Origin: Telluria sp.
GTDB taxonomy: Bacteria > Pseudomonadota > Gammaproteobacteria > Burkholderiales > Burkholderiaceae_D
NCBI GenBank assembly: GCA_036399735.1
Contig: DASWMN010000003.1
Location: 11,399-75,398 of the forward strand
Reading direction: 5' to 3'
DNA: 64,000 bases
Shown here: positions 43,254 to 51,314 of the stretch, piece after piece
Numbering within the stretch: the stretch's first letter is position 1
Layout: each line of letters starts with the position of its first letter
The notes under the pieces: model-generated
Seen by the model: only the letters and a program-made list of their open reading frames with translations
Told to the model about the DNA's origin: nothing
Database searches by the model: none
Program-made: the position numbers and the translations under genes

Positions 43254-43403
43254 ATCACCACAGCGTGACACACCAGGTGGCGCGCACGTGACAATTCAAT
43301 AGTATCCGCGGGTCTTTTTGGCCTATCCTGAACCGTTATCAAAATAATATGCATGGCTTGCCACCATGCCAGTGATTTTGATCAAGACGCAGGAGAGAAC
43401 GCC

Positions 43404-46400
43404 ATGACAGCCGCTTACACCAGCAGCCAGGCCGCCGACATCCAACGCAAGCTGGCCAGCATTGCCGACCAGTTCAGCGGCCCGCTGCCCGAGGACATCG
43501 CCCAGTTTCTGGCCGGGCCCACCACCTGCGCCGACAGCGCCCTGCTGCGCAGCGCGCTCGCCCGGTTCAACGCCGAATTCTGCAAATACCACGAAGACGA
43601 GCCCGACTACGACGAGCAGGTCTGGCGCGCCCTCGACGCGGTGGCCGGCAGCGTCCAGAACGAGGTCTGGCAGTTCGAACTGGACGGCATCAAGCTGCGC
43701 AAGCCGCCCGCCGGGGTGCGCCCGGCTGACGAAGCGACCGTAATCAGCGCCGCCCACCGCGCCGAACTGGCCGGCCTGGCCTTCTCGGGCGGCGGCATCC
43801 GCAGCGCCACCTTCAACCTGGGCATCCTGCAGGCGCTGGCCGCCAACCGCCTGCTGCGCGATTTCGACTACCTGTCGACCGTGTCCGGCGGCGGCTACAT
43901 CGGGTCCTGGCTGTCGCGCTGGCTGAACAAGGAAAACGACATCGCCATGGTCGAGAGCAAGCTCGCGCCCAAGCCCGAAACCCCGGGCGCGGTGCACGAG
44001 GCGGCCCAGATCACCTTCCTGCGCCAGCACAGCAATTTCCTGACACCCAAGACCGGCATGTTCAGCGCCGATACCTGGTCGATGCTGTCGATCTACGTGC
44101 GCAATACCATGCTCAACCTGACCATGCTGGTGGCATTGCTGGCCGTGGCCATGATGGTGCCGCGCTTGCTGGTGGCCTTGGTGGCCTGGCTCGGGCCCGG
44201 CTTCAAGACCCAGTTCGCGGTGCTGGGCTGGGCTGCCGCGCTGTGGTCGGTGTTCTGCATCGCGCTCAGTATTTCCATCAAGCCCAGCAAGGGCGCGCGC
44301 GACTGGCTGCGCGGCCAGAGCCAGGGCAATGTGATCGCCTTTGTGGTCATCCCGCTGATGCTGGCCGGCTTTGCCGGCAGCATCGCCATCTGGTACGGCA
44401 AAGCTTCCCTGCTGCCGATCTGGGCCCACCTGGGCAGCTTCGATTCTTTCCATCCGGCCTGGCTGTTTTTCCCCGGCACCCTCTACTTCGCCGCCTGGGC
44501 CTGCGGCTGGACCGGCGCCCAGGTCATCAATGCCGGTTCCTGGCGCGGGGCCGACTGGAGCGCGGCGCGGCGCCAGTGGGCCGGCCATTTCGGCTGCGCC
44601 GCCGCGGCCTACGCGATCGGCACCCTGCTGGTGCTGGCCACCCTGAAAGGCGCGCAGCGCCTGGCCATGTTCGACGACGCCGAATACGGCAGCGGCATGC
44701 CGGTGCACCTGGTGGCGCTGGGCATGCCGATCCTGCTGTCGCTGTTCGGCATCACCATGATCCTGTGCATCGGCCTGGTCGGACGCATGTACTCCGAGGC
44801 CAGCCGCGAATGGTGGGCGCGCCAGGGCGCCTGGACCATCATCCTGTCGCTGGCCTGGCTGGGCTTGTGCTGCATGAGCCTGTACGGCCCGCCCCTGGTC
44901 GACTATCTGATGGCCAGCGCGGGCGGCTGGGGCAGCAAGATCATGGCCAGCACCTGGGTCGGCGCCACCATTGCCGGCCTGCTGCTGGGACGGGGCGACG
45001 CGACCGGCAAGCGCGACCGCAAACCCTATTTCGGCCTCATCGCGACACTGGCCCCGGGCGTATTCGCGGCCGGCCTGATGCTGCTGGTGTCGGCGTTTTC
45101 GTTCCGCGCCACGCTGGCGCTGAGCCCGGCCGCGAACCGGCCGATCGAGTCCGGCATCATGGATGCGTACTATGCCAACACCGATTTCATTCCCGCCCAT
45201 ATCACCATCAGCACCCTGGTGCTGCTGCTGGTGGGCGGCTACCTGCTGGCGCGCCGGGTCGACATCAACAAATTCTCGCTGTACATGATGTACCGCAACC
45301 GCCTGACGCGCGCCTTCCTGGGCGCCCACAACAAGGGCCGCACGCCCCACCCCTTCACCGGCTTCGACGAAAACGACGATGTACTGCTGTCGCAGATGCT
45401 GGCCAACCGCGCTGGCCACATGCAGCGGCCCTTCCACATCATCAACACCACCCTGAACATGGTGAGCGGCACCGAGCTGGCCTGGCAGACGCGGCGCGCC
45501 AGCGGCTTTGCCTTTACCCCGGCCTTTTGCGGCTTCGAGCTGCCCGCCATGCCCACCCCGAACGGACGCACAGCGCCATGCGAAGCGGCGCGCGGCTGCT
45601 ACCGCCGCACGCGCGACTACGATACCGAGGGCGAGCTCACCGGCGACGACGATGGCGGCATCAAACTGGGCATGGCCATGGCCGTCTCGGGCGCGGCGGT
45701 CAGCCCGAACATGGGTTACCACTCGGCGCCGGCGCTGGCGTTTCTGCTGACCTTGTTCAACGTGCGCCTGGGGCGCTGGTTCGCCAACCCGCTCTGGCGC
45801 CACTGGAAGAAACGCTCGCCCGAGTTCGGCATGGCGCCGCTGCTGTCCGAAATGTTCGGCATGAGCGACTCCGGCGCGCACTACCTGAGCCTGTCCGACG
45901 GCGGGCACTTCGAAAACCTGGGCATCTACGAGCTGGTGCGGCGGCGCTGCCGCCTGATCGTGGTGGTTGACGCCGGCGCCGACGGCAATCTCCAGTTCGA
46001 TGACCTCGGCAACGCCATCCGCAAGTGCGCCACCGACCTGAACATCCAGATCGATATCGACGTCAGCAAGGTCGATCTGGTCAAGGCCGGCGACTTCAGC
46101 ACCGCTCACTACGCCACCGGCAAGATCCGCTACAGCCAGACCGACAAGCTCGAGCCGGGCGCGCACCCGAACGACAAGGTGGTCGACGGCACGCTGTTCT
46201 ACATCAAGCCCTCGCTGCTGGGCACCGAGCCGGCGGACGTGCTCAACTACCGCAAGAGCAACAAGGATTTCCCGCACCAGACCACGGGCGACCAGTGGTT
46301 CGACGAAACCCAGTTCGAAAGCTATCGCGCGCTCGGTTACCGGATCGGCTCGCTCGCCTTCCGCCAGGCGGCCGAGGCCGTGGTCCCGGCCGGGAAGGAA

Positions 46401-46514
46401 AACCGCATCAGCGATATCTGCGCCATCTTCGAAGGTATTTTCGGCAATGGTGCCCCGGCGCGCCACCATTTGCACGTGGTGCCCAAACGCCCCGGCAGCC
46501 GGCGCCAGAACTGA
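43404..46514 (+). CDS. Large polytopic membrane phospholipase (patatin/cPLA2-like)
   Basis: RBS AGGAGA at 43391. Motifs FSGGGIRS (43782-43805), STVSGGG (Ser codon 43884) and SDGGHFENLG (Asp codon 45897), with about 10-11 hydrophobic segments in between. Confidence 0.85.
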   Translation: MTAAYTSSQAADIQRKLASIADQFSGPLPEDIAQFLAGPTTCADSALLRSALARFNAEFCKYHEDEPDYDEQVWRALDAVAGSVQNEVWQFELDGIKLRKPPAGVRPADEATVISAAHRAELAGLAFSGGGIRSATFNLGILQALAANRLLRDFDYLSTVSGGGYIGSWLSRWLNKENDIAMVESKLAPKPETPGAVHEAAQITFLRQHSNFLTPKTGMFSADTWSMLSIYVRNTMLNLTMLVALLAVAMMVPRLLVALVAWLGPGFKTQFAVLGWAAALWSVFCIALSISIKPSKGARDWLRGQSQGNVIAFVVIPLMLAGFAGSIAIWYGKASLLPIWAHLGSFDSFHPAWLFFPGTLYFAAWACGWTGAQVINAGSWRGADWSAARRQWAGHFGCAAAAYAIGTLLVLATLKGAQRLAMFDDAEYGSGMPVHLVALGMPILLSLFGITMILCIGLVGRMYSEASREWWARQGAWTIILSLAWLGLCCMSLYGPPLVDYLMASAGGWGSKIMASTWVGATIAGLLLGRGDATGKRDRKPYFGLIATLAPGVFAAGLMLLVSAFSFRATLALSPAANRPIESGIMDAYYANTDFIPAHITISTLVLLLVGGYLLARRVDINKFSLYMMYRNRLTRAFLGAHNKGRTPHPFTGFDENDDVLLSQMLANRAGHMQRPFHIINTTLNMVSGTELAWQTRRASGFAFTPAFCGFELPAMPTPNGRTAPCEAARGCYRRTRDYDTEGELTGDDDGGIKLGMAMAVSGAAVSPNMGYHSAPALAFLLTLFNVRLGRWFANPLWRHWKKRSPEFGMAPLLSEMFGMSDSGAHYLSLSDGGHFENLGIYELVRRRCRLIVVVDAGADGNLQFDDLGNAIRKCATDLNIQIDIDVSKVDLVKAGDFSTAHYATGKIRYSQTDKLEPGAHPNDKVVDGTLFYIKPSLLGTEPADVLNYRKSNKDFPHQTTGDQWFDETQFESYRALGYRIGSLAFRQAAEAVVPAGKENRISDICAIFEGIFGNGAPARHHLHVVPKRPGSRRQN

Positions 46515-46622
46515 GCGCAGCGTATGCAAGCCGGGTGCCGGCTTGCACGATTGCCTGCGGCCTGCGGATTTCCGCGCCAGGCTTTATCATCGTAGCAACC
46601 GAGCACAAGCCTCCATGCCGCC

Positions 46623-46910
46623 ATGATCAAGCTCCAACTCCTGCTGCGCCACCCAGGCACCGATCCCGGCATCGATGAAGGCTTGCGTACGGCCCTGGAC
46701 GGCATGGGCCTGTGCGTTACCGGCTGCGGCCGCGCCACCGTGTCGGCCCAGATCGCCCCCGACGCCTTTGCACGGCTGTTCGGGCCGGCGCCCGACAGCA
46801 CGGCCCTGCCCGTGCCCGCCCCGCTGTCCGGCTACATCACGCTGATCACCAGCGCGCCGCCCCACTGTGTGACCACCGATTCTCAGAAAGGGAAACATGG
46901 AGCCATTTAA
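46623..46910 (+). CDS. Standalone protease-propeptide-like protein
   Basis: 95 aa. LRTALDGMGLCVTGCGRATVSAQIAPDAFARLFG aligns by eye with AIEALRQHGFVVSGRGRMTVSVRGSVALFERVFG in the next gene. Overlaps that gene by 14 bp. Confidence 0.7.
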   Translation: MIKLQLLLRHPGTDPGIDEGLRTALDGMGLCVTGCGRATVSAQIAPDAFARLFGPAPDSTALPVPAPLSGYITLITSAPPHCVTTDSQKGKHGAI

Positions 46911-48381
46911 GCTAAGCCAAAGCTATCCGCCCGCCGGCGCCGCCGCCCCGGCCGATGCCGTCCTGCGCATCGCCGTCACGTTCAAGGGCCGCACCCGCAC
47001 CGGGCCCACCAAGATCCCGGCCCGCCTGTCCTCGAACAGCATCGTCAGCTTCGAACCCGAGCCGGGCGAAATGGAAACGGCGATCGAGGCGCTGCGCCAG
47101 CACGGCTTCGTGGTGTCCGGGCGCGGCCGCATGACAGTGTCGGTGCGCGGCAGCGTGGCCTTGTTCGAGCGCGTGTTCGGCACCCGCCTGACCACCATCG
47201 CGCTGGACAAGTCGCTGTGCTACTCCAGTCCCTGCGTGTATTACCCGCCCGAGGGTGCCCCCTGGAACCCGGACCCGGTCCTGTTCCAGCTGATCGACGA
47301 CGCGTATATCCAGTGGCCGCACATCTATCTGTCCGACCCGCTGCTCAGCGCCCGTCCGCCGGAAGTCGACTACTATCACCTTGATGTGCTCAACGACGTG
47401 CCGGCCAAGCTGAACGTGCCGCCGATTCACCGCGAACGCCACCAGGGCGAAGGGATCCGGGTCGCCATGATCGACACCGGCTTCGACCACACGCACCCCT
47501 TCTTTACCCGCAATGGCTTTACCTCCTCGGTGGTGCTGGCGCCGTCGGCCTCGAACCGGGCAACCGATCCGGGCAGCCACGGCACGGGCGAGTCGGCCAA
47601 CGTGTTTGCAATCGCGCCGAAAGTCACCTTCATCGGCGTCAAGCTGGGCGACGACGCCGATCCGCAAGGCGGCGCCAGTATTCTGGAAGGCTTCCAGGAA
47701 GCGCTCAAGCACAAGCCGCATGTGATCACCGTGAGCATGTGCTACGACCTGCGCGAGCAGGACGGGCGCACCGGACTGGACGCCCTGCCGAACGGGCTCA
47801 AGCCGCTGGAAGCGGAGATCCAGGCCGCCATCGCCGCCGGCATCGTGGTGGTGTTCGCCGCCGGTAACGGCCACTACGCCTTCCCCGCCGCCATGCCGGA
47901 AGTGATCAGCGTGGGCGGCGCCTTTGTGGGCGAAGACGGCGCCATGCGCGCCTCCGACTATGCCTCGGCTTTCACCAGTGCCATCTATTCCGGCCGCCAT
48001 GTGCCCGATGTGTGCGGACTGGTCGGCTTGCTGCCGTTTGGCGACTACATCATGCTGCCGGTACCGGCCGGCGGCGCCATCGATATCAGCAATGCCGCGC
48101 ACGATGGCACCACCTCAGGCGACGGCTGGGCCGTGTTCAGCGGCACCTCGGCCGCGGCGCCGCAGATTGCCGCCGTGTGCGCGCTGCTGCTGCAGAAAAA
48201 TCCCGCGCTCACGCCCGCGGACATCAAGGCCTTGCTGACCCGCACGGCGGTCGATGTGCGCGAAGGGGCGGCCAATCCGTCCAGCGACCCGGAAGGGGTC
48301 GGCATCAAGGCCGGCCCGGGCATCGATGGCGCCACCGGCGCCGGCCTGGTCGATGCCCACGCCGCCTGGCTGCAGGCCTGA
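46897..48381 (+). CDS. S8 (subtilisin-family) serine peptidase, no signal peptide
   Basis: Triad MIDTG (D193), GSHGT (H228), FSGTSAAAP (S418) and oxyanion AAGN (N324). RBS AAGGGA. Confidence 0.92.
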   Translation: MEPFKLSQSYPPAGAAAPADAVLRIAVTFKGRTRTGPTKIPARLSSNSIVSFEPEPGEMETAIEALRQHGFVVSGRGRMTVSVRGSVALFERVFGTRLTTIALDKSLCYSSPCVYYPPEGAPWNPDPVLFQLIDDAYIQWPHIYLSDPLLSARPPEVDYYHLDVLNDVPAKLNVPPIHRERHQGEGIRVAMIDTGFDHTHPFFTRNGFTSSVVLAPSASNRATDPGSHGTGESANVFAIAPKVTFIGVKLGDDADPQGGASILEGFQEALKHKPHVITVSMCYDLREQDGRTGLDALPNGLKPLEAEIQAAIAAGIVVVFAAGNGHYAFPAAMPEVISVGGAFVGEDGAMRASDYASAFTSAIYSGRHVPDVCGLVGLLPFGDYIMLPVPAGGAIDISNAAHDGTTSGDGWAVFSGTSAAAPQIAAVCALLLQKNPALTPADIKALLTRTAVDVREGAANPSSDPEGVGIKAGPGIDGATGAGLVDAHAAWLQA

Positions 48382-48404
48382 GCAGCGGATTTGCGGATTT
48401 GCCA

Positions 48405-48432
48405 CAAAGGGCGGCTTGCCAGCCGCCCTTTG
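48405..48432. terminator. Hairpin terminator after S8 peptidase
   Basis: CAAAGGGCGGCT-tgcc-AGCCGCCCTTTG. Confidence 0.75.
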
Positions 48433-48563: not shown

Positions 48564-49670
48564 ATGTTCCCGTCCATCCGAAAACTCGGCCTGATTTGTG
48601 CCGTCGTCGCGTCCGCTTGTGCGGCCTCCTGCCTTGCCGCTGACAACAGCGTGACGGAAGCGGCCCAGCCGGTCCCGGTCGCGGTAACGCCGGCGGCGCT
48701 CCCGGTGGCCCAGCGCTTTGACAGCAGAGGGCCGGCGCCGATTATTGTCAGTTTCTTCAACATCAACGAAGAAAAAGTGGATACCTTGCGCCTCGTCACG
48801 CGCACCCACGTTGTCGGCGCCAATATCGCGTTTGCCGCGATCGGTGCCGTGCTTGGTGCGAACGGCGTGCCCACGACGGTCCAGTTCGGGGAAAAAAAAG
48901 AGTTTTATGGTGACGAGATCACCGATGCCAGCAGCGCGAGCAGATTGCGCAGTCCTTTCCGCGTGGCCTTGCCAGCCGCACTGGACCAACAAATCATGGC
49001 GCTTGCCGAAGCGGAGAGTGTGGAAGCCGGTCCTGTCTCTTTGAAGAAAACGCTGAGGATCGAGCCGCGCGAATGGCATCTTGTCTACAACGAGCTCAAC
49101 GCCGACAAGGAGAACGAGGATGCCTATGTACTGCGCTTTGCCGCCTATTTTTCCAAGGAAGTGGAAGGCGAAGAAAGCGCATTCCTGAGGAAGGCGCGCA
49201 GCATCGGCCGGTCTTGTCTGTATGTTTCAAAGCCACAGCCCCTGGCCGCCTGGAAACAGAACGACTACGATGCCATCCAAGCGGAAGGAAAACGCGCGCT
49301 CGAGAGCTGCATCGACCAGTTGACGCCCTCCCTGCCCGCTTTCCTCGGATTCGATTCCAACTCCAAAATCCGTATTGCCCAACTCAATTGCAAGACGAAC
49401 TTGAAACAGTGCGTCGCCGAAGCCGACACGGCTGCCGAACCGGATGAGACCAAGAAGCTGTGCAAGACCGAATACAAGCAGTGCATCAGCACCGACGTCA
49501 AACCCATGATCGACATGACGCCGCTGGGCCAATGCAAAGTGACTCTGGCCGCTTGCAAAGCCAGCGTGATCGACAAGGCGCGCGTAGCCAATCCGGACGA
49601 AAAAGCACCACGCTCCGCGTTTGTACCCTGCTCGCTTGAATACAAGGCTTGTGTGCAGGCGACCAAGTAA
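48564..49670 (+). CDS. Exported hypothetical protein with four C-terminal CX6C repeats
   Basis: Signal-peptide-like N-terminus. Repeats are CKTNLKQC, CKTEYKQC, CKVTLAAC and CSLEYKAC. Confidence 0.75.
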   Translation: MFPSIRKLGLICAVVASACAASCLAADNSVTEAAQPVPVAVTPAALPVAQRFDSRGPAPIIVSFFNINEEKVDTLRLVTRTHVVGANIAFAAIGAVLGANGVPTTVQFGEKKEFYGDEITDASSASRLRSPFRVALPAALDQQIMALAEAESVEAGPVSLKKTLRIEPREWHLVYNELNADKENEDAYVLRFAAYFSKEVEGEESAFLRKARSIGRSCLYVSKPQPLAAWKQNDYDAIQAEGKRALESCIDQLTPSLPAFLGFDSNSKIRIAQLNCKTNLKQCVAEADTAAEPDETKKLCKTEYKQCISTDVKPMIDMTPLGQCKVTLAACKASVIDKARVANPDEKAPRSAFVPCSLEYKACVQATK

Positions 49671-49679
49671 GCCGGCGGC

Positions 49680-50441
49680 TCAGCCGCGGCGCGCGTTCAC
49701 TCTCCAGGCGATGCAAAGGACCAGCACGGCGAAGGCAGCGCTGGCCATACCCGTGACGACGAAGTGGAACAGCCCATGCTCGATCGTCTTCGCGCTGCGA
49801 TACACCGAACCCGCCACGCCCCCGAATACGCCTGCCGCCACTACAAGGCTTAGCGTGAACATCCGTTGCCGCACGCTCAATGGCGCGGGATGGCGTAGTC
49901 CCGGCGCTGTTCGCTTGAACCACATAGCGACGCTGCTGACAATGACGACGAGTCCCGCCAAACTGCTCAGATGCTGCAAAAGCTTGAACACGGGGATTTG
50001 ATATTCACCTAGCGCCACCACTGTTCTGAGCCAACTGAGGCTATCGACAACAACCGTGTTTGCGTGCGTGAACGAATCCCAGATGATGTGGGTTAACGCC
50101 CCGACTGCCAGTGAAATGAGCACAGTGGCCATTGCACCAGGACTTCGCAGGGTCCACTGAATGTCTGTCGGCATGCGCGCACTAACGGCGTGTGGCAACC
50201 ACGCCAGCAAGGCTGGTCTGACGAGCAAACAGTAGACAAGATAGACGATCAGACCAGCGGGAACGCAATAAACCGGCACACCCCACGCCGTGTGCGTGAA
50301 ATTGCCGCCGACGCCCAGGGAAACGAAGTAGGCAAAATCAGGCGCCATGCTGCCAATCACCAAGGCAGGCAACGCTGCGCGCCTGCGTGCACAGGCATGC
50401 AGCGGGATCACGGCGGCCGGGTGGCACAAGGTAAAAGGCAT
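49680..50441 (-). CDS. DUF4184-like membrane protein
   Basis: MPFTLCHPAAVIPL, ALVIGSMAPDF, THIIWDSFTH and LQHLSS. Confidence 0.85.
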   Translation of the reverse strand: MPFTLCHPAAVIPLHACARRRAALPALVIGSMAPDFAYFVSLGVGGNFTHTAWGVPVYCVPAGLIVYLVYCLLVRPALLAWLPHAVSARMPTDIQWTLRSPGAMATVLISLAVGALTHIIWDSFTHANTVVVDSLSWLRTVVALGEYQIPVFKLLQHLSSLAGLVVIVSSVAMWFKRTAPGLRHPAPLSVRQRMFTLSLVVAAGVFGGVAGSVYRSAKTIEHGLFHFVVTGMASAAFAVLVLCIAWRVNARRG

Positions 50442-50528
50442 CAGCAACCTTCAGCCGGGTAATTTCGCCACTGCTCTGCAGGAGCGCAAGCAATGGTATT
50501 GAACGCGCTTGCACGCCCGCGCGACGCC

Positions 50529-50774: not shown

Positions 50775-51020
50775 CTGCAAGCTCCGGTTTCCATCGTTTT
50801 CAATAGCGCAGGTCGGGCCGCTTCGTTCAGTTGCACAACTAAAGCAGGGCTGCGAGCGCGGTAGCAACATGCCGCGCCACGAAAATAGACGGCGCAGCCA
50901 CGCGCGCCAGCCGGACCATTGTACTTCACGGCTTTGACCGCAGGCCCCGATGAGTCGCATCGCACCGCACGCAGGCCGATGCATTGGAATGATCGCTCTG
51001 CCTGGCCCCACCAACTTCCC

Positions 51021-51314
51021 ATGCGCATTTGCCTAGACGACGAACGCAACACGCCAGATGGCTGGGTCCGCACCTGGTGGCCCGACGAAACGATCGCCCT
51101 GCTCGAACAGGGGTCGGTGACGCAGCTGAGCCTGGACCACGACCTTGGCGACGATGAGCGCGGAACGGGCTACGACGTGGTGCTGTGGATCGAAGAGGCG
51201 GTGGCCCTGCGCGGCTTCATTCCCCCAGAAATGTTCGTTCACTCGGCGAACAGTTCCGCGCGGGAGAAGATGCTGGCCGGGATACGCGCGATCGAGGCGC
51301 TCGCGCAGCGCTAG
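51021..51314 (+). CDS. Cyclic-phosphate-processing receiver-like domain protein
   Basis: 97 aa with the pattern LDDER.TPDGW...LSLDHDLG...GTGYDV..WIEE...HSAN. Confidence 0.75.
   Translation: MRICLDDERNTPDGWVRTWWPDETIALLEQGSVTQLSLDHDLGDDERGTGYDVVLWIEEAVALRGFIPPEMFVHSANSSAREKMLAGIRAIEALAQR

What the first reader, a model, noticed from the sequence alone, without database searches (positions are those of the whole stretch)
43404..48432. Candidate new system: membrane phospholipase + free propeptide + cytoplasmic subtilase
Seen in sequence: three co-oriented genes follow trmL. They encode a ~1036-aa polytopic phospholipase with GGGIR/TVSGG/DGG motifs, a 95-aa propeptide-like ORF, and an S8 protease with a complete D193-H228-S418 triad and no signal peptide. 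The last two overlap by 14 bp and a terminator closes the block. Established: patatin-like phospholipases are cell-killing effectors in anti-phage systems (e.g. CapV in CBASS), and proteases activate effectors in others (e.g. bacterial gasdermins; IetAS pairs an ATPase with an S8 protease). Inference: a protease is held in check by a dedicated inhibitor and, once released, processes the membrane phospholipase, giving abortive infection or lipid remodelling. I do not know of a described system with this three-part architecture. Caveat: a 108-bp gap with a 10-bp hairpin (46525-46547) separates the phospholipase from the protease pair, so linkage is not proven.
Basis: partly seen in the sequence, partly recalled or inferred. 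Interest (0 to 1): 0.82.

Follow-up and report, generated by a model that had tools for sequence, protein, structure and literature searches.

The report
Protease-prodomain gene pair, unrelated phospholipase neighbour
The three genes are real, but only the small gene and the protease belong together, as a two-gene unit conserved across many bacterial phyla; the membrane phospholipase is a recent neighbour found beside them only in a few close relatives.

Summary
All three ORFs, their motifs, the 14-bp overlap, the 108-bp gap and both hairpins are present as described. The window comes from a Massilia genome assembled from a biocrust metagenome.

The three-part system is not conserved. The S8 family was found in 432 species genomes. 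In the best 80 loci, the small ORF lies directly upstream on the same strand in 74. A patatin homolog lies within 10 kb in only 4. Of 50 non-Massilia carriers of the pair, 43 have no such patatin anywhere.

In Massilia the conserved order is bioC-comF-trmL-[slot]-small ORF-S8-[slot]-rfaE2. The patatin gene, with its own conserved 3' hairpin, fills the first slot in three genomes only. The motifs upstream of the small ORF are also present in genomes without patatin.

The real unit is a pair. One member is a signal-less subtilase zymogen whose model best matches intact pro-kumamolisin. The other is a free-standing paralog of that enzyme's own prodomain (HHalign 98%, E 2e-13). About half of these small proteins end at or one residue after the predicted prodomain cleavage site.

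The small protein most likely acts as a dedicated inhibitor or chaperone supplied in trans. This is a new variant of a known kind. No support was found for a defence role.

The parts
43404..46514 (+). Patatin-like phospholipase (1036 aa). The catalytic Ser161 and Asp832 are separated by a bundle of about 8-9 TM segments. It is an accessory gene inserted between trmL and the protease pair and is not part of the conserved unit.
   Evidence: Pfam PF01734; invariant GGGIR/S161/D832 and TM segments; family of more than 7000 proteins, many with N-terminal PG_binding_1; adjacent to S8 in only 3 genomes.
46525..46547 (+). 10-bp GC-rich hairpin immediately after the patatin stop. It is probably the 3' end, stabiliser or terminator of the patatin transcript.
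   Evidence: Part of a -27.7 kcal/mol fold of 46512-46565. A stem at the same place in CF038 has a different sequence (GCACGCTGCA...TGTGGCGTGC), so the structure is conserved by compensatory change.
46545..46592 (+). Conserved 5' region of the small-ORF/S8 pair. It holds the motifs GCACGATTGC (46545-46554) and GCTTTATCATCG (46581-46592) and is a candidate own promoter or operator.
   Evidence: Both motifs recur upstream of the small ORF in Massilia genomes with and without the patatin gene (alignment A6). The sigma-70 scan does not call a promoter here, so the function is inferred.
46623..46910 (+). 95-aa free-standing paralog of the S8 prodomain. Proposed to be a trans inhibitor or chaperone.
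   Evidence: No Pfam, NCBIfam or PADLOC hit. HHalign against the S8 N-domain gives probability 98%, E 1.9e-13, against 0.3% for the catalytic domain. [quoted passage not shown] Directly upstream of S8 in 74 of 80 loci. The family has 462 clusters at 50% identity, and nearly all of the best 150 listed are 78-217 aa.
46897..48381 (+). Signal-less S8 subtilase zymogen (494 aa): prodomain about aa 20-145, low-confidence linker 146-155, catalytic domain with D193/H228/N324/S418.
   Evidence: PF00082 at 101 bits; invariant triad; AF2 pLDDT 85, pTM 0.90; best PDB matches are precursors: pro-kumamolisin 1T1E at E 2.4e-23, TPP1 precursor 3EDY, ProN-Tk-SP 3AFG, fervidolysin 1R6V, pro-subtilisin E 3WHI.
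48405..48432 (+). 12-bp stem-loop 24 nt after the S8 stop; a likely 3' end of the pair's transcript.
   Evidence: -24.9 kcal/mol, z -3.33, 0 of 200 shuffles fold as well. There is no U-run and the scan does not call it.

Best explanation
The region holds two independent things.

(1) A two-gene module that is widely conserved and spread patchily across phyla. The 494-aa protein is an intracellular (signal-less) subtilisin-type zymogen with its own N-terminal prodomain, a flexible linker and an intact D-H-S triad. The 95-aa protein encoded just upstream, with a 14-nt overlap, is a duplicated, free-standing copy of that prodomain.

Proposed mechanism (inferred). The zymogen folds and cuts off its own prodomain near WPHIY-L145. 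The separately made prodomain copy then binds the mature enzyme, with its C-terminal tail lying product-like in the active-site cleft. This keeps the protease latent or buffered in the cytoplasm until the small protein is titrated away or degraded. It may also assist folding in trans.

(2) A patatin-like membrane phospholipase gene with its own 3' hairpin. It was inserted into the variable slot between trmL and the pair in one Massilia sub-clade. It is a separate accessory gene, not a partner or substrate of the protease.
For: Conservation of the pair:
- The small ORF lies upstream on the same strand in 74 of 80 loci from Pseudomonadota, Acidobacteriota, Planctomycetota, Myxococcota, Desulfobacterota, Bacteroidota, Actinomycetota and Cyanobacteriota.
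- The estimated median gap is 36 nt, and 7 loci show overlaps.
- The same layout occurs in 35-43% identical homologs on a Calothrix plasmid and a Brevibacillus megaplasmid, annotated 'hypothetical protein' plus 'S8 family serine peptidase'.
- No other gene family recurs next to the pair outside Massilia.

Paralogy: HHalign probability 98%, E 1.9e-13 over aa 14-87 against 55-148, tails included. The small-ORF HMM also hits the N-domains of many S8 ORFs.

Zymogen architecture: the top fold matches are all unprocessed precursors. The low-pLDDT linker at 146-155 coincides with the variable insert seen in homologs.

Tail: at H81+3, 59 of 76 small proteins have F, L, M or Y. This position aligns with L145 of WPHIYL. 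36 of 76 end there or one residue later.

Precedents:
- Stand-alone propeptide-like inhibitors: POIA1, PBI2, an Arabidopsis inhibitor, TgMIC5 and SUB1-ProM (PMC6993865).
- The separately encoded chaperone and temporary inhibitor ORF2 of Aeromonas ASP, whose C-terminus sits at the catalytic site (PMC5638518).

Patatin independence.
Against: - No biochemical data exist; binding, inhibition and autoprocessing are inferred.
- Foldseek gave no specific prodomain hit for the small protein alone (best E 0.2, generic ferredoxin-like folds).
- In the Massilia clade, including this window, the tail is divergent and extended (HCVTTDSQKGKHGAI). The product-like C-terminus holds for the family but not directly for this protein.
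- No complex model could be computed.
- Cytoplasmic location rests on the absence of a signal peptide, not on a predictor or an experiment.
- Within Massilia, patatin homologs occur only in S8-positive genomes (7 of 14 against 0 of 10). This is not corrected for phylogeny.
- Two further loci have a patatin 4-6 kb away (L029, L054), so a loose association cannot be fully excluded.
Confidence: 0.62

Rival explanations
1. The three genes form one system: the inhibitor releases the protease, which then processes or activates the membrane phospholipase for abortive infection or lipid remodelling.
For: - The genes are co-oriented and adjacent in the window, CF038 and H-1.
- Metagenome contigs with 74-81% identical patatins share contig sizes with S8 hits.
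- Patatin paralogs lie 4-6 kb from S8 in L029 and L054.
- Genus-level co-occurrence is 7 of 14 against 0 of 10.
Against: - A patatin lies within 10 kb in 4 of 80 loci, against the small ORF in 74 of 80.
- 43 of 50 non-Massilia carriers lack the patatin family altogether.
- In L029 and L054 the genes are separated by opposite-strand, unrelated genes: AAA_16, amidohydrolase, SCO1.
- The same slot holds an M28 peptidase in L019.
- The patatin gene has its own conserved hairpin, and the pair has its own conserved upstream motifs.
- PADLOC gives no hit for the patatin or the small ORF.
Confidence: 0.05
2. The pair is a toxin-antitoxin-like or abortive-infection module. The cytoplasmic protease is the toxin and the labile prodomain copy is the antitoxin, released on phage infection or stress.
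For: - The small upstream gene is tightly coupled to the larger effector.
- Distribution is patchy: 14 of 25 genomes in the genus, 1 of 64 sampled genera in the family, yet many phyla, which suggests horizontal transfer.
- Copies occur on plasmids.
- In Massilia the pair is flanked by variable slots.
Against: - PADLOC gives only a generic subtilase hit (56.8 bits, below the Pfam S8 score) and a 14.6-bit IetS fragment.
- Tested neighbours have no PADLOC hits.
- There is no phage homolog.
- No recurrent defence neighbours were found.
- In Massilia the pair sits between the housekeeping genes trmL and rfaE2.
- 48-66% identity across phyla fits a conserved cellular substrate better than an arms-race gene.
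Confidence: 0.12
3. The small protein is an obligatory folding chaperone supplied in trans, like ORF2 for Aeromonas ASP. It is needed once for maturation and is not a standing inhibitor.
For: Prodomains of subtilases act as intramolecular chaperones and can work in trans (established knowledge). ASP/ORF2 is a precedent. The pairing is strict.
Against: The S8 protein already carries a complete, conserved prodomain of its own, so a second chaperone is not obviously needed. ORF2-type chaperones serve propeptide-deficient enzymes.
Confidence: 0.15
4. The small protein is a substrate or precursor, such as a signalling or RiPP-like peptide, matured by the S8 protease.
For: S8 proteases mature peptides in lanthipeptide and cyanobactin pathways (NCBIfam PatA and Pfam-level similarity only). 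The variable middle region and C-terminal extensions of the small protein could be released.
Against: The small protein is a well-folded domain (pLDDT 86.7) homologous to the prodomain. No modifying enzymes or transporters recur nearby.
Confidence: 0.05

Closest known systems
Stand-alone subtilisin propeptide-like inhibitors (MEROPS I9 type): Pleurotus POIA1, yeast PBI2, an Arabidopsis inhibitor, Toxoplasma MIC5, Plasmodium SUB1-ProM
   Same: [quoted passage not shown] It is encoded next to (SUB1-ProM) or acts on a cognate subtilase. The C-terminal segment is important (PMC6993865).
   Different: All described examples are eukaryotic. Several are thought to be convergent mimics. Here the protein is a demonstrable paralog of the neighbouring enzyme's own prodomain. 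It is bacterial, signal-less, co-oriented and close-set with the protease gene (7 estimated overlaps), and conserved across at least 8 phyla. There is no Pfam Inhibitor_I9 hit.
Aeromonas sobria serine protease ASP and its external chaperone ORF2
   Same: This is a bacterial two-gene unit of a subtilase plus a separately encoded small protein. The small protein acts as chaperone and temporary inhibitor, with its C-terminus in the active site (PMC5638518).
   Different: ASP is a secreted, kexin-like, propeptide-deficient enzyme, and orf2 lies downstream. Here the protease keeps its own prodomain, both proteins lack signal peptides, and the small gene lies upstream. There is no Pfam ORF_2_N hit.
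Pro-kumamolisin / sedolisin (S53) and TPP1 precursors
   Same: These are the best whole-chain structural matches: prodomain, linker and catalytic domain in the same arrangement (1T1E at E 2.4e-23, 3EDY).
   Different: The catalytic residues here are subtilisin-type D-H-S with an Asn oxyanion, not Ser-Glu-Asp. Pfam assigns S8, and Pro-kuma_activ gives no hit.
Bacillus intracellular subtilisin proteases (ISPs)
   Same: These are cytoplasmic subtilases regulated by an inhibitory N-terminal extension (4ZOQ appears among the sequence hits; PMC6220982 is listed).
   Different: ISPs have a short N-terminal peptide (own knowledge), not a full prodomain, and no separately encoded partner.
CapV (CBASS) and other defence patatins; IetAS
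   Same: Patatin catalytic dyad; S8 catalytic domain.
   Different: There is no cyclase, ATPase or other defence partner. The patatin is a 1036-aa polytopic membrane protein. PADLOC does not hit the patatin, and the IetS hit is a 39-residue fragment.

Membership tests
Peptidase S8 (subtilase), Pfam PF00082 | Profile match above the gathering score, and an Asp-His-Ser triad with an Asn oxyanion residue | tested here: met
   101.4 bits against a cutoff of 21.8. D193, H228, N324 and S418 are invariant in 32 homologs. Subtilisin BPN' is the best PDB sequence hit.
Patatin-like phospholipase, Pfam PF01734 | Profile match above the gathering score; G-G-x-R oxyanion motif, nucleophile Ser and DG(G/A) Asp | tested here: met
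   33.4 bits against 27.7, N-terminal part only. G129GGIR, S161 and D832-G-G are at least 97% conserved. The first Gly of GxSxG is replaced by Thr (TVSGG).
MEROPS I9 / Pfam Inhibitor_I9 (subtilisin propeptide) | Sequence-profile match to the I9 propeptide family | tested here: not met
   No Pfam family at E <= 0.01 for the small ORF or for the S8 N-domain.
MEROPS I9 / Pfam Inhibitor_I9 (subtilisin propeptide) | [quoted passage not shown] | tested here: inconclusive
   The topology is predicted, but Foldseek gives only generic ferredoxin-like hits at E >= 0.2. Tail placement could not be modelled. Family-wide, the C-terminus falls at the predicted cleavage position.
ASP/ORF2 external-chaperone system (Pfam ORF_2_N) | ORF2-family small protein encoded downstream of a propeptide-deficient kexin-like protease | tested here: not met
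   No Pfam hit for the small ORF. The gene lies upstream, and the protease has its own prodomain.
Sedolisin (S53) with Pro-kuma_activ prodomain | Ser-Glu-Asp triad; Pfam Pro-kuma_activ match | tested here: not met
   The triad is D-H-S and there is no Pro-kuma_activ hit. Only the overall precursor architecture resembles 1T1E.
IetAS defence system | IetS-type S8 protease paired with the IetA ATPase | tested here: not met
   The IetS hit is 14.6 bits, E 0.0014, aa 414-452 only. No ATPase gene is adjacent.
CBASS with CapV patatin effector | CD-NTase gene adjacent; soluble CapV-type patatin recognised by defence HMMs | tested here: not met
   No PADLOC hit for the patatin. The neighbours are trmL and the S8 pair.
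Type II toxin-antitoxin module | Toxicity of the larger product, neutralised by the co-transcribed small product | not testable with these tools
   Only the layout (small gene upstream, overlap) is compatible.

The most novel reading that the evidence does not exclude
The small-ORF/S8 pair is the first recognised prokaryotic family of cytoplasmic subtilase zymogens governed by a separately encoded paralog of their own prodomain. It would be a self-contained latency switch spread by horizontal transfer across at least 8 phyla. Released protease activity would then have a specific intracellular role, such as stress- or infection-triggered proteolysis in the manner of a toxin-antitoxin module. 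In the Massilia sub-clade the neighbouring membrane patatin could have been recruited secondarily.
Probability: 0.2. Interest if true: 0.7.

Novelty: new variant of a known kind. Interest (0 to 1): 0.42.

Why it matters
The proposed protease-activated membrane phospholipase defence system does not hold up, which removes a false lead.

What remains is an unannotated family of small proteins. It has 462 clusters at 50% identity and no Pfam or NCBIfam model. It always sits next to a highly conserved, signal-less subtilase (48-66% identity across phyla).

Regulation of subtilases by stand-alone prodomain copies has been characterised only in eukaryotes, and in one secreted Aeromonas enzyme that lacks its own propeptide. 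A widespread cytoplasmic bacterial version would give a simple system for studying protease latency and prodomain duplication. It would also provide a natural, highly specific pair of protease and inhibitor. In addition, the small protein deserves a family model so that it stops being annotated as 'hypothetical protein'.

Tried and rejected
- PADLOC on the three proteins and on neighbours in related loci gave nothing beyond a generic subtilase hit.
- NCBIfam gave only sub-threshold S8 equivalogs: mycosin, PrtP, QhpE, PatA.
- Foldseek of the small-protein model against the PDB gave no specific hit.
- tblastn against the phage collection gave no match.
- A search for RNA-seq runs covering the patatin/small-ORF junction found only DNA runs from a biocrust metagenome, so co-transcription could not be tested.
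- All-vs-all clustering of flanking ORFs looked for a third conserved partner and found none outside Massilia.
- The sigma-70 scan found no promoter in the 108-bp gap.
- A literature search on TM-patatins with a PG-binding domain found nothing specific.
- I considered whether the small ORF and S8 are one frameshifted gene. I rejected this because they are separate ORFs in 74 of 80 loci. The only apparent fusion is in Massilia sp. H-1, an assembly scored only 48% complete in which the patatin gene is also broken into several frames.
- I considered a RiPP link through the MbnB-like gene near L016, but it does not recur.
Full report
**Observation.** The window is a contig of a Massilia genome assembled from a biocrust metagenome. 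Downstream of comF and trmL lie three co-oriented ORFs:
- a 1036-aa protein (43404..46514);
- a 95-aa protein (46623..46910);
- a 494-aa protein (46897..48381).

The first protein matches Pfam Patatin only over aa 125-193 (33.4 bits). G129GGIR, Ser161 (TVSGG) and Asp832 (DGG) are at least 97% conserved among 60 homologs, and roughly 8-9 hydrophobic segments lie between aa 230 and 616. The third protein is a Peptidase_S8 (101 bits) with D193, H228, N324 and S418 invariant in 32 homologs.

Neither the S8 protein nor the small protein has room for a signal peptide, because the open frames are only 502 and 104 aa. A 12-bp stem-loop at 48405-48432 is also present, but it has no U-run and the terminator scan does not call it.

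**Is it a three-gene system?** No.

Within the genus, 14 of 25 genomes (the window's own included) carry the S8 ortholog (77-100% identity). Twelve of the 13 relatives that carry it show a small-ORF match just upstream. A patatin gene is adjacent only in the window, in Massilia sp. CF038 and in Massilia sp. H-1. The H-1 assembly is scored only 48% complete, and its patatin gene is split across frames.

tblastn mapping shows a constant backbone: bioC-comF-trmL-[slot 1]-small ORF-S8-[slot 2]-rfaE2.
- Slot 1 is about 70-420 bp in most genomes. It holds the patatin gene in three genomes and an M28 peptidase plus another ORF in strain TWP1-3-3.
- Slot 2 holds 0-9 kb of assorted genes, including GGDEF and solute-binding proteins. 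In the window it holds a 368-aa ORF, a DUF4184 protein and a cREC_REC protein.

A 49-51% identical patatin paralog sits in slot 2 of one Massilia metagenome-assembled genome (MAG; L029). It is separated from S8 by an opposite-strand AAA_16 gene and a GDSL lipase. The repeated proximity in Massilia is therefore best read as two insertion-prone slots, not as coupling.

Beyond the genus, motif scanning of one genome per species found the S8 family in 432 genomes. In the best 80 loci:
- the small ORF lies immediately upstream on the same strand in 74 (estimated median gap 36 nt; 7 overlaps);
- in L018 it reads through into the S8 frame;
- in L076 and L085 the only matches lie downstream on the opposite strand;
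- it is undetected in 3.

A patatin homolog lies within 10 kb in 4 loci. Three of these are Massilia. The fourth is a gammaproteobacterial MAG in which an amidohydrolase and a SCO1 gene intervene. Clustering of all flanking ORFs found no other family shared by the non-Massilia loci. Of 50 non-Massilia genomes that carry the pair, 43 have no homolog of this patatin at E <= 1e-20 anywhere.

Contexts of metagenomic homologs agree: a Vicinamibacterales genome and two other contigs each have a 94-105 aa ORF with no Pfam hit upstream of S8 and no patatin nearby. Homologs of 35-43% identity on a Calothrix plasmid and a Brevibacillus megaplasmid also keep an upstream 'hypothetical protein' that matches the small-ORF profile.

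**Transcription.** No RNA data exist for this organism. Two indirect points argue for separate units.
- The hairpin after the patatin stop is kept in CF038 with a different stem sequence, which is compensatory conservation.
- The 75 nt upstream of the small ORF carry two motifs, GCACGATTGC and GCTTTATCATCG. These recur in Massilia genomes that lack the patatin gene.

The patatin gene and its hairpin therefore lie upstream of a pre-existing 5' region of the pair. Read-through is not excluded.

**What the pair is.** The small-ORF family aligns with the N-terminal domain of the S8 family at HHalign probability 98%, E 1.9e-13 (aa 14-87 against 55-148). It does not align with the catalytic domain (probability 0.3%). 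The small-ORF HMM also hits the N-domains of many S8 ORFs directly.

[quoted passage not shown] Foldseek finds only generic ferredoxin-like folds for it. The S8 model (pLDDT 85, pTM 0.90) has an N-domain, a low-confidence linker at 146-155 and the catalytic domain. The linker falls where homologs carry variable K/R/A/P-rich inserts.

The best PDB matches for the S8 model are all unprocessed precursors: pro-kumamolisin 1T1E (E 2.4e-23), TPP1 precursor 3EDY, ProN-Tk-SP 3AFG, fervidolysin 1R6V and pro-subtilisin E 3WHI. The enzyme is therefore a zymogen with its own prodomain, and the small gene is a free-standing duplicate of that prodomain.

The small protein's conserved tail (L-x-V-P-x-x-L-x-x-Y-V-E-S-I-S/T-V-A-P-P-H-x-R-M/L/F) aligns with L-I-D-D-A-Y-I-Q-W-P-H-I-Y-M/L of the enzyme. 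In 59 of 76 sequences the residue three positions after the His column is F, L, M or Y. 36 of 76 proteins end there or one residue later. About half of the free proteins thus stop at, or one residue after, the predicted cleavage point of the cis-prodomain. That is the geometry of product-like inhibition by subtilisin propeptides (established knowledge) and by ORF2 of Aeromonas ASP (PMC5638518). In the Massilia clade the tail is divergent and longer, so for this particular protein the point is weaker.

**Mechanism (inferred).** This is a cytoplasmic subtilase that matures by autoprocessing. It is then held, buffered or helped to fold by a stoichiometric prodomain paralog made from the closely linked upstream gene. 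I put about 0.6 on this inhibitor/chaperone reading.

Rivals:
- Pure trans-chaperone role (0.15). This is weakened because the enzyme keeps its own prodomain.
- Toxin-antitoxin-like or defence module (0.12). The layout and patchy distribution fit. However, there is no defence-HMM support, no defence neighbours, no phage copies and unusually high cross-phylum conservation.
- Small protein as a processed precursor (0.05).

**Comparison with known systems.** Stand-alone propeptide-like inhibitors are characterised in fungi, plants and apicomplexans (PMC6993865). A separately encoded chaperone/inhibitor is known for one secreted, propeptide-deficient bacterial subtilase family, ASP/ORF2.

The present pair differs in four ways. 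Both proteins lack signal peptides. The enzyme retains its own prodomain. The partner is a demonstrable paralog of that prodomain. The small gene lies upstream of the protease.

The small protein matches neither Inhibitor_I9 nor ORF_2_N in Pfam, and no NCBIfam model. RefSeq calls its relatives 'hypothetical protein'. The family comprises 462 clusters at 50% identity, and nearly all of the best 150 listed are 78-217 aa.

I treat that as a lead, not as evidence.

The patatin belongs to a very large annotated family of more than 7000 proteins, often with an N-terminal PG_binding_1 domain. Its split catalytic domain is a feature of the whole family, not of this locus.

**Verdict.** Novelty: a new variant of a known kind. 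Interest is moderate.

Noticed in passing
window 50919-51314 (+): A 131-aa protein with a cREC_REC domain (PF20274, cyclic-phosphate processing receiver domain; E 2e-25). It lies in the variable slot between S8 and rfaE2 and has no PADLOC hit.
   Followed up: partly
window 49680-50447 (-): A DUF4184 / Zn-dependent phospholipase C-like membrane protein (191 bits). This is a second lipid-hydrolase-like accessory gene in the same variable slot, absent from CF038, where rfaE2 follows S8 within 160 bp.
   Followed up: partly
window 48564-49670 (+): A 368-aa ORF with an N-terminal signal-like hydrophobic stretch and a Cys-rich C-terminal part. It has no Pfam, NCBIfam or PADLOC hit.
   Followed up: no
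Massilia loci L017-L034, L053, L056 (trmL to rfaE2): Both flanks of the small-ORF/S8 pair are insertion-prone. Slot 1 (trmL to small ORF) holds nothing, a patatin gene or an M28 peptidase. Slot 2 (S8 to rfaE2) holds 0-9 kb of unrelated genes: GGDEF, solute-binding protein, AAA_16 NTPase, GDSL lipase and a patatin paralog.
   Followed up: partly
L076:10378-10719 (-) and L085: In an Acidimicrobiaceae MAG and a Sandaracinaceae MAG, the best small-ORF match lies just downstream of S8 on the opposite strand instead of upstream. In L085 the hit falls inside a 2.2-kb open frame.
   Followed up: no
small-ORF homologs of the Massilia clade (window 46866-46910; L017, L019, L022, L026, L032, L033): In this clade the small protein carries a 12-14 residue C-terminal extension ending in H/N-A-A-I/L, in place of the x-R-M/L/F end seen in other phyla. 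The extension overlaps the S8 start codon.
   Followed up: partly
window 43351-43369: An inverted repeat (GCATGGCTTGCCACCATGC), scored as terminator-like on both strands, lies between trmL and the patatin start. It overlaps the alternative upstream ATG at 43353.
   Followed up: no
patatin homologs P0129-P0205: Most 45-55% identical homologs of the TM-split patatin carry an N-terminal peptidoglycan-binding domain (PF01471) and are annotated 'peptidoglycan-binding protein'. The window's protein gives no such hit. The topology of the family relative to the membrane is unclear.
   Followed up: no
L018 (Massilia sp. H-1, CP087969.1): This 'complete' chromosome is scored only 48% complete. The patatin gene is split across several frames and the small ORF reads through into the S8 frame. 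Systematic frameshift errors in the assembly are the likely cause.
   Followed up: no
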